Positions 6,880-56,133 of a stretch of 64,000 nt of DNA are shown one piece after another. The position numbers were made by a program, and so were the translations under genes. The stretch is taken from assembly GCA_964016885.1 (NCBI GenBank), contig CAXHJY010001285.1, forward strand, positions 42,157-106,156, written 5' to 3'. This DNA is from Eledone cirrhosa. Its lineage: Eukaryota. Every line of letters starts with the position of its first letter. The stretch's first letter is position 1. Under the pieces are notes generated by a model, which saw only the letters and a list, made by a program, of their open reading frames with translations, searched no databases and was not told where the DNA came from.

Positions 6880-8557
6880 TGATTCTAAATCTAACGGGAG
6901 AGTAGAGTGTACATTTGGGGTCATCAGTCTAGCACACATATCCGGACAATAAGTGGTGTGGAATCCATTCCCACGCGTCTTGATACCCATTTGTCTCCGT
7001 TATAATAATGCATTAGCTAGAGATGGATACTAGGACAAAATTGAATACATGCATATAGATAGAAACAATTACACATCCACTCATAGCCCCAAACATACCA
7101 TAGACATAAACACTAACATACACACAATTATCGGTAATGAAAATAATAGAGTTACTCGAACCCGAAACAAAAAAGACAGGATAAACCCGGCTACAAATAG
7201 ATATAACTTAAATACTCCCATAAAGTTAAATAGGAGAGTAAGGTCCTGTTCAGTTCTGTGGTACAATCCACCACACTCCTTAGGACTACAAAAAAAACAT
7301 AGCTTTTTTAACGCATTAGATAAATGTTTTCCTAAATCACACAAATACAGTCAAATCTTTAATCGAAACACAATTAAACTTTCTTACTTGACAACCAAAA
7401 GCATAGCCTAGATTACAGCGAAGATTAACAATAGAAATCTGGGAATCAAACAAAGAGATAACTCATAATAGCAAGCACAGAAACACTGGTAGAGTAAACA
7501 GCAACTCGAATAACAAGGATAATATATAAATAATATAAACCAACGGACACACAGACAAAAATGGTAACATAAATAATTGCAATTGCAGCAATCATAACAG
7601 TTTCCCAATGAAAAATAACTATTTAAATGAAAATATTGTTTACGAATATGAAGTAAGAAGGATAATAAAACTTTAAGAAATATTGGTGCAACTTCTACTA
7701 GGTTTAAGGAAAGGTGGTATAACTATTACGACTTATTTAAAAGAGCTGATAAAAGATCTAGCACAGCCTTGTCGGAACTGATTAGGTCGCTAAAAAATAT
7801 ACAAGTGGAATACTCCCTTTCTTGGTCAAAACTCTCACATGCTTTTCCATATATGAATGGATCTATATCTAAGGGGTTTGACCTCTGTACTACAGAGACT
7901 TTGCACATCATAAATAGTAGGCAAACCCTCTGAAATGTTTAATTCTTGTTTACACAAAATTAAGAAGACATTTCGGAGTGTATATAGTTAAAACTTCAGT
8001 AGATAATGTTAAATAGATCATCAAATAATTAATTAAACATTCATAAATATATCGATACATAATAACATCAGCATCAAAGTACAAATATCAAAAATTAGAA
8101 TTTGTATCTAAGTGAATAATATCTATTATAAAAATATTTTGAAATACAGTTTCTACTTGCCCTACTATAGTGACCTAAATCAAGTGACGAATCCGGTAAC
8201 TTGAACCCTAGCCAGTTCACAAGCAGCAACGCCAATCTCACGCACATATAAGAACTGCTACTTGAGGAATTCAGACATATGCTTACTGGTCGGCGAAGCG
8301 AATAACACGTATGACCGGTGACATATCAAAGGAACTTTACATCTCGTTTGTATTTTTGTCTGAAGAGAACGCGTATGGGAGTTGTTATACAACTGCCCTA
8401 CGTCTTTGAAATACGTATAAGAAAATAAATATGGATGTATGAACGAAACCGCCTTTCTTGTTTATTATAAAACTCTGGATGAACAAAAACCGTGGATTGC
8501 TTCATATCTGTTAAGAAAACGTCGGCAGATTTTCAATCAACCAACTTTCTTCAAATT
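6880..8557 (+). mobile_element. Hydra-type PLE, 5'-truncated and decayed (RT C-terminus, linker, GIY-YIG, pLTR)
   Basis: VLWYNPPHS..FFNALDKCFPKSHKYSQIFNRNTIKLSY, CNCSNH, YIGATSTRFKERWY and DLCTTETLHII are homologous to the 15.3-16.6 kb ORF. Hammerhead at 8351; ends at (TA)n. Confidence 0.85.
8351..8427 (+). ncRNA. Type I hammerhead ribozyme motif
   Basis: tatttttgt CTGAAGA [long stem II gcgta-tggg-agttgt/acaact-gccc-tacgt] GAAA tacgta TA agaaaata, with palindromic stem III. Confidence 0.75.
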
Positions 8558-8807
8558 ATATATATATATATATATAAGCAAGATGTATGGTAGGTCGTAT
8601 GTGAATCCCTGACTCTTAGGCCCTTTTCAAATTCTCTTAACTCCCCATAACCCCTCCCTTTTACAACTCCGACAACTAATATAAAAGAGCCCCCTTAGAA
8701 TATACACCCCAAATATACAAGCGGAGCTGCTGATGTATACCACAATTTCAAACTGCTAATCTTGAGTGAAACGTTGATGTAAATAATGAACTTACAATCA
8801 CATGTTA

Positions 8808-8858
8808 TATGCCTTGAAAAGTCCCACCATATGGTCGGACGAAACGGCTGTCGGCAAT
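8808..8858 (+). ncRNA. Degenerate hammerhead motif in a solo pLTR-like segment (8577-8905)
   Basis: tgcc TTGAAAA gtcc-caccatatggtc-ggac GAAA cggctg TC ggca. Stems I-III are intact but the core has 2 substitutions. Confidence 0.6.
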
Positions 8859-9019
8859 AAACTTGTTATAATGTCATAATAGTTCCTTTGTTCTTTTTCA
8901 ATAATATATATATGAGCAAATATTGCATCAAGAAAATTAAGACTTCGGCGTGTTGAGAAAAGGAATTTATTTGCTTTAACATATGTTTCTGTGTCTATTA
9001 TACATTTTGTACATATGCT

Positions 9020-52990: not shown

Positions 52991-53377
52991 TTATGTGGAA
53001 TGTAAACAAATATCATCATCTGTGTTGGCGATGTCGACTACGAAGAGTTGGAAAGAACCCGAGACACACATAGACATCTACATAGACACAAATACACCCA
53101 CAGATACAAATACATCTACAGAGACACTCACACCTACAGAGACACACACAAACGTACAGACACACAACCACAATACAAATACAGAACATGTACACAATAC
53201 TGAGACAGAGTACCTGCCAACTTTAAATAGATTGTGTAACCTCGAAGTGAACACACACACACACACGTGTGTGTCTATGTATGTATGTGAGTCCATGTTT
53301 ACGTTTGTGTTTATGTCCCATAACTTACCGATTCGACTAAAAAGAAAACATTGCAAAAAAAAAAAATAATAAAAAAA

Positions 53378-53468
53378 TACTGGGGTTGATATGACCGAAT
53401 AAATCAAGGAAATGCTCCAGCACGGCCGCATACTAACGAATGAAACCAGTAAAAGAATGAAAAAGAAA
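53378..53468 (+). mobile_element. SINE 3' end fragment (third tail type)
   Basis: ACTGGGGTTGATATGACCGA..GCTCCAGCACGGCCGCA..TGAAACCAGTAAAAGA resembles an octopus SINE tail as I recall it. Confidence 0.5.
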
Positions 53469-53780
53469 GTAAACATGTTAAAAATAGGCGAAGAGAAAAA
53501 AACGTACCAGATGGAAGTGTGAAACTGTCCTGGAATCAGATCCCTCGGTAAAACTGAGACAAATTCTACACTGGCCAAAGTGCCAGCTGTGGTCAACAGA
53601 AGGTTCCTTGCCGGAGAATCGACAATCGTCATGGTTTCTGTCCGAATTTGGGGCAGGGGTCAGACACCCGTGTACCCCAAGTTGACTTATTCGACGGCGC
53701 GAAGACTCTAAATCCGAATATTTATCACGTTCGGGACAATACATCACTAATACGAATACATCGATCGATTGTCCGATGTA

Positions 53781-56133
53781 GACCCGTATGCGGAGCAAAT
53801 ATAGCTAGCAACTACAGGATCTCTTACTTCCTCTCAATGGTTATACGCCCCATAATCAAGATGTCCCCATATGTATGTGACAGTACAGAGGACCTCCTCA
53901 GCAGAATCGGTGATTGCAACAAAAACAGGAACCTATCCAACTGCATAATAGACAGCATGGATGTGGTATCACTGTACCCATCCATTAACATTGATTTTGC
54001 TGTGGAAAAATGTGTGGAGATGATTATTGAGAGTGAGGTAGAGTTCTGCGACGTCGACACAGACGAACTGGGCCTCCTACTTAGACTTACCTATGACACT
54101 GACTACCTAGAAAGACATGACCTTAGACGTTTCTGCCCCAGTAGACCCATAAGAGGTAGAGCCCCCACCATAACCTCAATGGCTAAAAAGACTCCCATGG
54201 GAAGTTGGATTGGGTGGACCAAAGTTATACGGACCCCCCAAAACAATGATCAGGTAAGAAAAATGGTTGCACATGCAATAAGGGCTAGTATCAAAACTAC
54301 CCTAAAGGGCCACATATTCAAGTTCAACGAGAAGATCTACACCCAAAATGAGGGAGCAGCCATTTGCGTCAGCATAGCTGGTGATGTTGCCAACCTTTGT
54401 ATGGAATGGTGGGAAAGGAGACTTAAAGAACTCCTTAATGAGAGCTCCATAGACCTCATCATGTACTCTCGTTACGTAGACGATATCAATATAATTATAA
54501 GAATATACCCACTAGAGAGCACTAACAAGTTTGATTTAGAACGTAGCACAACGGAAAGCATCCGGCAGATAGCTAATTCCATACACCAGAGTATAACTGT
54601 AACTTTCGACTACCCTTCCAAACACCCTAACAATAGACTGCCTGTATTAGACACGGAACTCTGGATTAACACTATAGATGAGAGAGCGCAAATTCTCTAC
54701 TCTCACTACGCTAAACCCATGGCCTCCAAATACCTGATACTCAAAAACTCACCAATGTCCAGTAGTGCTAAGTTTAATATTCTGATTGCAGATTTGGTAC
54801 GAGTGATGAAGAATGTTACCCGCATGTGCGACCTAACAGAAAGGTAAAGACACATCCAACACTTCATCAACCGTATGCAGTTCTCCGGCTACAACCAAAG
54901 AGACAGAGTCAGAGTATACGAAGGAGCGATGGAGAAGTATATGAACCTCATATAACTGGACATGAAAGGAATTTGCCCATTATACAGGAGCAAATCATGG
55001 AATAGCTTAGATAGGGCTAGACATAAGATAGGGAAAGCCATATCTTGGTACGACAACCAGAGATACCAGAGTGTCATGTTTGTGGTCGCTACCCCTGCAG
55101 GGAAATTAGCTAACCAGTGTAGAAAGGCCCTGAGAAAGACCCACTTAAATATTAAGGTAGTAGAAAAGCCAGGAACCACCATAAAATCCCTGATCAGCAA
55201 AACCTACCCTTTTAAGAAAACCCACTGTACTAATAGGAAATGTATCATATGTAAGGTAAACCCCCGGATAAACTGTAAAACTAGAAACGTAGTCTATAGC
55301 ATAAGATGTACAGAGGGTACTTGCAGAAACATGACAACAACATACATAGGCGAGACAGTTCGTAGCATAGGTGAAAGGATAGACCAACACTGGGGGGAAC
55401 TGAAAGGACGAAAAGGCGGTTCAGTACTATACGAGCATGCCAGACAACAACACGACGGTAACATAGACAACATAGAAATTAGAATAATATCTAAACATAG
55501 AAATAACCCAGCAATAGGCAAATCAGAGAGTCCAGTGAAATAGAACTTAGAAGGCCAAGGCTAAACAGAAAGAATGAATGGAATAACAACAACACCCAAA
55601 CAAACAACACTGACCTAAGAGAAGTATAAATAAATAGATAAATAAATAAATAAATACATACACAAGCACAATAACAACAAACACATATAAAAACACAGTA
55701 GTAAAGATATAATACATTAACCAATACACAGTCACCCAATCACGAACACACATCAAACAAAACACTATACACACACGCCAACGCATGCGCAAAGAAGACA
55801 AAATAAAATAAACAAATAAATAAATATATAAACAGACTAAATAAAGATGGCGTAGAAAATACATGCAACGGGAGGAAACAATAGCACTACTGACGATCTT
55901 GCAGATGTGCAACGAAAGAACTTTGATAAACTATATATATGTGTTTGTGTCTACATTGTATCTGTATTATTTTTGACCGTTGGTCAGTCAATGGCAACAT
56001 TGAGGACCGAATAAGTTAGATTACCGATATAAAAGACACAGAAGCGAAAAGCGAAAAACCAACCAAACAGTGTGTGTTCTGTTATTAATTCTGGCAATAT
56101 TACACAAATGTGACCTTCCCCAAATATAACAAT
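53781..56133 (+). mobile_element. Second, 5'-truncated copy of the same PLE in inverted orientation
   Basis: Reverse complement of 48857-51213. ORFs 53648-54847 and 54962-55543 are separated by one in-frame TAA. 1-nt deletion near 55513. Ends at (TA)n. Confidence 0.93.

What the first reader, a model, noticed from the sequence alone, without database searches (positions are those of the whole stretch)
8351..55925. A series of about 15 type-I hammerhead ribozyme motifs from many unrelated PLE families in 48 kb
Seen: CTGANGA-stem II-GAAA-short stem III-UH-stem I at 8351(+), 14111(+), 18119(+), 18660(-) and 31741(+). Core with weak or missing stem I occurs at 33660(+), 36553(-), 49062(-) and 55881(+). 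Core-mutated versions occur at 8808, 11318(-), 21185, 22271(-)/24476, 35975 and 44253. Stem sequences differ between families while pairing is kept, and most lie within about 250 nt of a terminus at (TA)n. Known: PLE pLTRs carry minimal type-I hammerheads that often work as dimers. Inference: this locus records a diverse, probably uncatalogued cephalopod ribozyme/PLE system, invisible to ORF annotation.
Basis: partly seen in the sequence, partly recalled or inferred. Interest (0 to 1): 0.75.

Follow-up and report, generated by a model that had tools for sequence, protein, structure and literature searches.

The report
Jumping-gene hammerheads with altered cores
These motifs are hammerhead-shaped RNA sequences at the ends of known Penelope-type jumping genes, likely self-cutting and about as dense here as elsewhere in this genome, but two lineages, one with about 30,000 copies, carry a fixed change at a core position predicted to weaken cutting, so they could test whether these elements need to cut their RNA at all.

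Summary
All 16 listed positions are real type-I hammerhead or hammerhead-derived motifs. I found three more inside the span (21592-, 27185-, 39072+): 19 motifs, 15 insertions, about 11 related groups. Wherever an ORF is present they lie sense to it, near the 3' end of a Penelope-like element, mostly Hydra clade. This is a known system, already listed for one Octopus family (PMC8557442). The locus is not special: 79 sampled 10-kb stretches give 1.27 motifs per 10 kb (about 380,000 genome-wide); the window's 14 against 8.4 expected is P=0.10. Stems covary (14 of 22 pairs). Three 'core-mutated' cases are family-fixed variants, not decay: U3-A8 (known), U4C (at least 4,661 copies, several subfamilies) and U4A (about 31,000 copies, 5-bp stem III). 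My searches found no natural U4A in print and U4C only for one viroid; Lunse 2017 could not be read. No cleavage or RNA evidence was obtained. The scan has noted PLE hammerheads on other DNA of this genome, but no position-4 variants turned up in my look-ups.

The parts
7001..7930 (+). Hydra-like PLE ORF remnant upstream of the 8360 hammerhead
   Evidence: tblastn; tree
8351..8427 (+). Type-I hammerhead, canonical core at 8360, palindromic stem III, predicted cut after 8419; divergent member of superfamily A
8809..8857 (+). Hammerhead with family-fixed U3-A8 core (8814), predicted cut after 8852
   Evidence: 1,023 genomic matches vs 0 control, 99 of 100 listed rows U3-A8; Hydra-like ORF follows it in L358
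11320..11367 (-). Decayed U3-A8-type hammerhead (core starts 11362; core position 8 and one stem III base damaged), related to 39072
13458..18226 (+). Young Hydra-clade PLE in (TA)n: inverted 111-nt arm 13458-13568, upstream pLTR 13566-14218, ORF 14357-16569 (one-base frameshift near 15336), downstream pLTR 17580-18226
   Evidence: pLTRs 99.8% identical; RWR, DKT, CxCX5C motifs
14111..14176 (+). Hammerhead in the upstream pLTR, core 14119, predicted cut after 14168
   Evidence: superfamily A pattern 67,283 matches vs 5
18119..18184 (+). Identical hammerhead in the downstream pLTR, core 18127, predicted cut after 18176 (4,008 nt from the first)
18664..18712 (-). Canonical hammerhead (core 18707), one arm of the inverted insertion 18615-21285
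   Evidence: 1,397 matches vs 11; Hydra-like ORF in L361 and L363
21188..21236 (+). Other arm of the same insertion, private U4G change
21557..21598 (-).
   Evidence: 6 relatives in fetched loci
22123..24670 (-). Hydra-clade PLE with inverted ends; ORF remnant 22752-23941
22252..22374 (-). U4C hammerhead with a 94-nt stem-loop II (core 22369), only 3-bp stem I
   Evidence: 139 matches vs 0; 28 of 30 copies CCGATGA, 2 TCGATGA
24437..24559 (+). Inverted-arm copy of the same U4C hammerhead (core 24442)
27095..27190 (-).
   Evidence: (6 of 7 full-length relatives U3-A8)
31741..31803 (+). Canonical hammerhead, longest stems in the window (core 31748, cut after 31794); no ORF nearby
33655..33692 (+). 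Minimal hammerhead (core 33660), 2-bp stem I, 4-nt palindromic stem III; ORF clade unassigned
34330..36045 (+). 5'-truncated Hydra-clade PLE of the U4A family (EN remnant 34415-34945)
35975..36025 (+). U4A hammerhead (core 35980); family has 5-bp stem I, 3-bp stem II, 5-bp stem III with 7-nt loop; this copy also has G12U and a broken stem III pair
   Evidence: 27,904 vs 0, 31,030 vs 34, contigs of run X1
36555..36599 (-). Superfamily B hammerhead (core 36594), stems partly decayed in this copy; EN remnant 36798-37139
   Evidence: 21,616 vs 155
39067..39114 (+).
44253..44315 (+). Superfamily A hammerhead with a private U4C change (core 44261)
   Evidence: 0 of 100 listed family rows have C4
48857..56135 (.). 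Inverted two-armed insertion of a Neptune/Nematis-type PLE (DKS, CX4CxxC linker)
49064..49107 (-). Superfamily B hammerhead (core 49102)
55885..55928 (+). Superfamily B hammerhead on the other arm (core 55890)

Best explanation
The 19 motifs are type-I hammerhead folds at the 3' ends of Penelope-like retrotransposons (mostly Hydra clade) piled up in TA repeats, and they likely cut tandem transcripts into unit-length RNAs, mostly as dimers, with the fixed U4C and U4A cores likely giving weakened rather than dead ribozymes. Shown: motif, position, sense orientation, copy numbers, stem covariation, fixed core variants, and two identical motifs 4,008 nt apart around the ORF of 13458-18226. Inferred: transcription from the upstream pLTR; cleavage after 14168 and 18176; dimer use where stem III is an 8-nt or shorter palindrome; joining of the unit into a circle (or use of uncut tandem RNA) so that reverse transcription can start about 50 and 146 nt downstream of the cut and copy more than one unit. 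For U4A my odds are about 0.5 attenuated but still selected, 0.35 catalytically dead, 0.15 near-normal. For U4C, residual activity about 0.7.
For: Descriptor hits far above shuffled and reversed controls. Seven family patterns gave 139 to 67,283 matches against 0 to 155 for the reversed pattern. Superfamily A, 40 of 49 sequences aligned: 92.9% of cells paired, 14 of 22 pairs with two-sided change, slid controls 34-58%. U4C clade, 20 of 41 sequences: 88.8% paired, 3 of 16 pairs two-sided. Sense orientation in all 7 window elements that keep an ORF remnant. Hydra motifs RWR, DKT, CxCX5C match PMC8557442 section 11. Nine of 12 tested motifs form no stem III pair as monomers, and 8 of those 9 have a self-complementary stem III strand, as in PMC4209133. 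U4C: 4,661 vs 224 for U4, kept in older subfamilies (48 of 70 rows) although it sits in a CpG. U4A: 96 of 100 rows, the other 4 at inverted junctions; no other letter at 3% or more in 11,656 contigs of run X1; an older U4A subfamily differs at 6 majority positions, all in N7 or loops. A viroid U4C variant stays infectious (PMC3088659).
Against: No cleavage, RNA end or circle was observed. PLE minimal hammerheads cleave poorly in vitro even as dimers. A mutational scan found low activity for single changes in CUGA (PMC9901934). Insertion ends do not pile up at the predicted cut: 4 of 64 at 0/+1, 2.8 expected, P=0.30. The old-versus-young U4A comparison is partly forced by my selection: N7 by the pattern, loop II by hand; only the 2-3 loop III changes are free. 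Covariation controls ignore relatedness. The hammerhead fold is not the lowest-energy fold for 10 of 12 motifs (0.1-8.7 kcal/mol above; U4A 1.5, with a competing helix using A4). Superfamily B has a non-palindromic 2-bp stem III, and 33660, 39072 and the long U4C motif have 2-3-bp stem I. The sister of the U4A family has an equally long stem III with a U3-A8 core, so a long stem III does not require U4A.
Confidence: 0.75

Rival explanations
1. Cleavage is dispensable for these elements: they move through uncut linear tandem transcripts, and the U4A motif is a dead relic carried by a successful family.
For: About 31,000 copies with a change predicted to break the U-turn. Every intact insertion keeps sequence on both sides of the cut site. 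Naiads proliferate without canonical hammerheads and the authors raise parasitism (PMC8557442). No excess of ends at the cut.
Against: Stems and core are kept across about 11 groups with compensatory change. U4A stems are unchanged between two subfamilies. A U4A copy (L373) has direct tandem pLTRs 3.26 kb apart. This rival explains U4A better than the rest.
Confidence: 0.2
2. The fold is kept for a non-catalytic job, such as a binding or template-start signal for the element's RT/EN protein or a splice or stop signal, so position 4 is free while the helices are not.
For: Position 4 changed in at least two lineages while stems persisted. U4A insertions often begin at the 5' edge of the fold: 9 of 30 unselected copies at -48 to -41 from the cut, none from -95 to -49.
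Against: G5, A6, G12-A14 and the UH site stay fixed, C3-G8 covaries as U3-A8, which fits catalysis. The start hot spot can be explained by short palindromes at inverted junctions.
Confidence: 0.1
3. The cluster is chance matches or an assembly artefact of an unplaced contig.
For: Short degenerate motif in AT-rich, repeat-rich DNA; no Rfam match.
Against: Shuffled and reversed controls near zero. The same families occur on the large chromosomes and in independent run contigs.
Confidence: 0.01

Closest known systems
Hydra-clade PLEs with hammerheads, including Hydra-1_oBim of Octopus bimaculoides (Craig et al. 2021, PMC8557442; passages, section 11 and supplement part 2 of 59 read)
   Same: RWK-like, DKT and CxCX5C motifs, C-terminal GIY-YIG, (TA)n targets, sense hammerhead near the 3' end with short palindromic stem III, tandem and inverted pLTRs
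   Different: One octopus family is listed there; none of the 26 Hydra rows in File S2 has a position-4 change. Elements here reach 4.0 kb through a long 3' UTR (reported: generally under 3 kb).
Minimal PLE hammerheads (Cervera and de la Pena 2014, PMC4209133; parts 1-2 of 4 read, 2 supplement files searched, 1 not searchable)
   Same: Type I, dimer-type stem III, many families per genome, U3-A8 covariant, pairs on opposite strands
   Different: Reported counts are about 2,000-9,000 per genome. No position-4 variant in the parts read. Stem III here is longer (4-8 nt palindromes, or 5-7 bp monomer stems).
Natural core variants of hammerheads (Perreault et al. 2011, PMC3088659; section 8 and passages read)
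   Same: U3-A8 natural and active; U4C known from a viroid, slower in vitro but sufficient in vivo
   Different: Those are rare single cases. Here U4C and U4A are fixed in thousands of copies; U4A is not named in the text read (Figure 5 not visible).
PLE-associated hammerheads with diminished stem III (Lunse et al. 2017; not held; content recalled, title seen)
   Same: Dimer cleavage, PLE association
   Different: Could not check whether it covers cephalopods or position-4 variants
Metazoan non-LTR retrozymes (PMC7229834, passages; bioRxiv 10.64898/2026.07.22.740005, part 1 of 5)
   Same: Type-I hammerheads linked to PLEs; axolotl has 126,247 motifs
   Different: Retrozymes are short non-coding tandem repeats. 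No hammerhead here lies in a tandem array.

Membership tests
Type-I hammerhead ribozyme | Core CUGANGA / GAAA / UH in order C-G-S with stems I, II, III | tested here: met
   11 of 19 motifs have a canonical core, 3 U3-A8, 5 carry a position-4 or other core change
Type-I hammerhead ribozyme | Covariation of stems across related copies | tested here: met
   14 of 22 pairs; 3 of 16; controls ignore phylogeny
Type-I hammerhead ribozyme | Site-specific self-cleavage 3' of UH | not testable with these tools
   no assay; insertion-end footprint inconclusive
Type-I hammerhead ribozyme | Conserved U4 of the U-turn (U4A and U4C families) | tested here: not met
   these two are filed as variants that look like hammerheads, activity open
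Rfam hammerhead families | Match to a covariance model | tested here: not met
Canonical loop-loop type-I hammerheads | Tertiary contact between loops 1 and 2 | not tested
   not examined
Hydra-clade PLE | RWK motif, DKT in place of DKG, CxCX5C linker | tested here: met
   RWR, DKT, CxCX5C in 14357-16569; CxCX5C in the U4A remnant, RWR in L370
Hydra-clade PLE | C-terminal GIY-YIG without the CCHH motif | tested here: inconclusive
   by eye no CxxC between the GIY and YIG parts; no alignment to reference Hydra proteins
Hydra-clade PLE | (TA)n insertion, pLTRs, sense 3' hammerhead | tested here: met
   48 of 58 sampled motifs have (TA)4 within 400 nt downstream vs 33% of random positions
Hydra-clade PLE | Placement with named Hydra elements in an RT tree | not testable with these tools
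   reference sequences not available as tool input; EN tree with unnamed homologs only
Neptune/Nematis PLE (superfamily B) | CX2-5CxxC linker before a GIY-YIG with CCHH | tested here: inconclusive
   CX4CxxC linker and internal cysteines present; the two clades were not told apart
Non-LTR retrozyme | Hammerhead in every unit of a short non-coding tandem repeat | tested here: not met
Type-SGC permuted hammerhead (PMC10085705, passages) | Block order S-G-C | tested here: not met
   0 SGC hits in the window with a strict scan

The most novel reading that the evidence does not exclude
This genome holds one of the densest hammerhead loads reported (about 380,000 motifs, over 100 per Mb). In it, Hydra-clade retrotransposons changed the supposedly fixed U4 of the catalytic U-turn to A and to C and still amplified to thousands or tens of thousands of copies while keeping the fold. 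These are natural tuned-down ribozymes: PLE mobility needs only weak or no RNA cleavage.
Probability: 0.45. Interest if true: 0.7.

Novelty: new variant of a known kind. Interest (0 to 1): 0.5.

Why it matters
The role of hammerheads in Penelope-like elements is stated as unclear, with parasitism as one option (PMC8557442). A family that reached about 31,000 copies with U4A, beside relatives with canonical, U3-A8 and U4C cores, is a ready-made natural series for testing whether cleavage is needed and how much. The motifs are missed by Rfam, and the U4A/U4C forms by any CUGANGA descriptor, so self-cleaving RNA counts in cephalopod genomes are probably far too low (235 Rfam hits reported for giant squid, PMC6962438). 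The window itself is ordinary for this genome.

Tried and rejected
Rfam scans: no hammerhead match. A DNA-similarity search of the genome with 14090-14200 returned nothing because common words are skipped; patterns were used instead. Sequencing runs: no RNA holder listed; the four runs laid are contigs of unknown kind and show no RNA ends. Excess of insertion ends at the predicted cut: 3 of 57 in the 27185 family start exactly at +1, but pooled over ten families 4 of 64 vs 2.8 expected, P=0.30, with subfamily alignment artefacts at -11, +8 and +14; inconclusive. A second U4A lineage suspected from L324/L325 was rejected: that family is U4C (48 CCG, 18 CTG, 2 CAG, 2 CGG of 70, hand count). The idea that U4A compensates for a monomer-competent stem III was weakened by the sister family. 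Single origin of U4C: not resolved, short and long U4C families are separate in the EN tree with weak support. Candidates 3621+, 9699+, 14577+, 29180+, 57708- rejected (no relatives with the fold, or weak stems). Permuted (SGC, CSG) hammerheads: none in the window. One search used a mis-registered structure; one search is the valid count. Pfam found no PLE-specific domain above cut-off in the PLE ORFs. Literature searches.
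Full report
Setting. The window is the last 64 kb of a 106-kb unplaced contig of a 3.0-Gb genome. It is rich in (TA)n, (TG)n and mobile-element debris; 52% of it matches other fetched loci. Named protein hits are from Argonauta and Octopus, consistent with a cephalopod.

Observation. A strict descriptor found 4 motifs against 0.21 in 100 shuffles; looser ones found 11 against 0.12 in 50 shuffles and 15 against 0 on the reversed sequence. 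Three more lie in the span: 21592-, 27185- and 39072+. The total is 19 motifs in 15 insertions and about 11 sequence groups. Four pairs are the two ends of one insertion. Rfam detects none.

What carries them. Seven window elements keep an ORF remnant, and in each the motif is sense to it and near the 3' end. The element 13458-18226 is nearly complete: an inverted 111-nt arm, a pLTR, an ORF with RWR, DKT and CxCX5C motifs, a 1.65-kb 3' UTR and a second pLTR 99.8% identical to the first. These motifs define the Hydra clade (PMC8557442 section 11). The ORF has a one-base frameshift near 15336 that most laid contigs do not share. Hydra-like ORFs also go with 8360, 22369, 27185 and 35980 in the window, and with the 8814 and 18707 families in fetched copies. 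The motifs at 36594 and 49102/55890 belong to Neptune/Nematis-type elements. The motifs at 11362, 21592, 31748, 33660 and 39072 have no ORF assigned; 44261 is assigned by likeness to superfamily A.

The locus is ordinary for the genome. In 79 evenly spaced 10-kb stretches (mostly from the large chromosomes, not drawn at random) the descriptor found 103 motifs against 3 on reversed sequence: 1.27 per 10 kb net (bootstrap 0.92-1.63), or about 380,000 genome-wide (280,000-490,000). The window's 14 compare with 8.4 expected, P=0.10. An earlier descriptor without U4A on 59 of these stretches gave 0.88 per 10 kb. Exact patterns give a floor: 67,283 vs 5 control for superfamily A (14 of 100 listed rows are double counts, so about 56,000 sites), 21,616 vs 155 for B, 31,030 vs 34 for U4A, 4,661 vs 2, 1,397 vs 11, 1,023 vs 0 and 139 vs 0. 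Published counts I saw: about 2,000 plus 1,300 in Schistosoma and 9,000 in Xenopus, over 6,000 in Acropora and 126,247 in axolotl, 235 by Rfam in giant squid. Descriptors differ, so the comparison is rough.

Covariation. In 40 of 49 superfamily A sequences 92.9% of cells pair, 14 of 22 pairs change on both sides (all 10 of stem II), no shuffle of 500 reaches the covariation score, and slid registers give 34-58%. The pattern fixed the 5' side of stem I but not stem II or the 3' side. Superfamily B shows two alternative stem II sequences. These controls do not remove relatedness.

Core variants. 8814 is U3-A8 in 99 of 100 listed copies, the covariant already reported in PLEs; 27185, 39072 and decayed 11362 are of the same type. 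21193 (U4G) and 44261 (U4C; 0 of 100 family rows share it) are private decay. Two cases are not. U4C: 28 of 30 copies of the long-loop family; 4,661 vs 224 for the U4 form in a short-loop clade; 48 of 70 rows in older subfamilies. The U4 copies look like CpG decay: two inverted pairs have one arm of each kind. Stems still pair and covary weakly (20 of 41 sequences, near-duplicates, most U4 copies and unrelated hits left out; three U4 relatives kept). U4A: 96 of 100 rows, the four others at inverted junctions, confirmed in 11,656 contigs of one run. It belongs to an autonomous Hydra family with near-full ORFs in 5 of 6 fetched inverted pairs and one direct tandem. It has a 5-bp stem III that can close in a monomer. 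An older U4A subfamily (17 copies, picked by pattern and by hand) differs from the young one (28 copies) at 6 majority positions, all N7 or loop; one is a 9:8 tie and three were forced by selection, so this is suggestive only. U4A copies are about 92% identical to their nearest neighbour, against 100% for the 14119 family, so the burst is past.

How it likely works. Inferred from PMC4209133 and the anatomy: a transcript from the upstream pLTR spans two hammerheads. They cut after 14168 and 18176, as a dimer because the 8-nt palindromic stem III cannot close alone, and release a 4,008-nt unit. The insertion's right arm ends 50 nt and its left arm 146 nt downstream of the cut-equivalent site, and the right arm is 4,661 nt long, more than one unit. 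The template was therefore a circle or an uncut tandem RNA. For U4A, published scans predict low activity (U4 contacts the A6-N7 phosphate). A viroid U4C variant is slow in vitro but sufficient in vivo. I put attenuated-but-selected first for both variants, with a dead relic a close second for U4A.

Results against. No RNA evidence was obtained. Insertion ends show no pooled excess at the cut. The hammerhead fold is not the minimum-energy fold for 10 of 12 motifs. Several motifs have 2-3-bp stem I. U4C may have arisen once or twice.

Novelty. PLE hammerheads, dimer use, U3-A8 and an octopus Hydra family with its hammerhead are in print. In eight searches I found no report of a natural U4A hammerhead, of family-fixed U4C in PLEs, or of this abundance in cephalopods. 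Lunse et al. 2017 and its supplements, figures of PMC3088659, one supplement of PMC4209133, Repbase and Dfam could not be seen and may bear on this. Earlier scan notes describe PLE hammerheads, retrozyme arrays and a permuted hammerhead elsewhere in this genome. Look-ups by words, by the U4A and 9620-9810 sequences and by place found nothing.

Verdict. Observation confirmed, interpretation partly supported. A new variant of a known kind, interest 0.5, carried by the position-4 variants and the genome-wide load rather than by the locus.

Noticed in passing
window 4386-4472 (-): Old hammerhead family outside the finding's span, long stem II, palindromic stem III; relatives show canonical and decayed cores.
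   Followed up: partly
window 9630-9800; many loci such as L012, L057, L080, L225: Short two-armed palindromic insertions made of the 3' half of the 27185-family hammerhead. 26 of 53 arms begin 33-50 nt before the cut site, in loop II, so they lack the core. Unexplained hot spot; may be a non-autonomous derivative.
   Followed up: partly
L062, L302, L128 (27185 family): Arms that begin exactly at the predicted cleavage site, including one insertion with both arms ending there; a possible footprint of cut RNA, not significant when pooled.
   Followed up: partly
U4A family, window 35975-35985 equivalent: Truncated copies often begin at the 5' edge of stem I (9 of 30 unselected). The A4 change also creates a splice-acceptor-like YYYCAG and a competing 5-bp helix with the GAAA strand.
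   Followed up: partly
window 14111-14168: One contig of run X1 (depth 629) joins the predicted cut site back to the start of stem I; could be tandem hammerhead units or a graph artefact at TA repeats.
   Followed up: no
window 3818-4303, 4492-4723, 12050-12239, 42049-42151, 42490-42614, 47601-47800, 58039-58180, 58734-58928, 61963-62110: Abundant ~190-nt SINE-like repeat family.
   Followed up: no
window 28648-30965: Short LTR-retrotransposon-like remnant: 225-nt direct repeats 92% alike around an aspartyl-protease fragment.
   Followed up: no
window 1227-3594 (-): LINE-like remnant with an endonuclease/exonuclease/phosphatase domain fragment.
   Followed up: no
window 37165-37866 (+) and 12356-12813 (-): Neptune-type PLE endonuclease remnants with no hammerhead found downstream; also 9132-9637 (-) Hydra-like remnant without one.
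   Followed up: partly
window 51790-52310 (-): About 170-residue asparagine-rich in-frame insert in the N-terminal part of the superfamily B ORF.
   Followed up: no
window 5194-6517: Inverted 267-nt ends, each with a CUGANGA (5227-, 6484+) but no intact GAAA partner; possibly a decayed PLE end.
   Followed up: no
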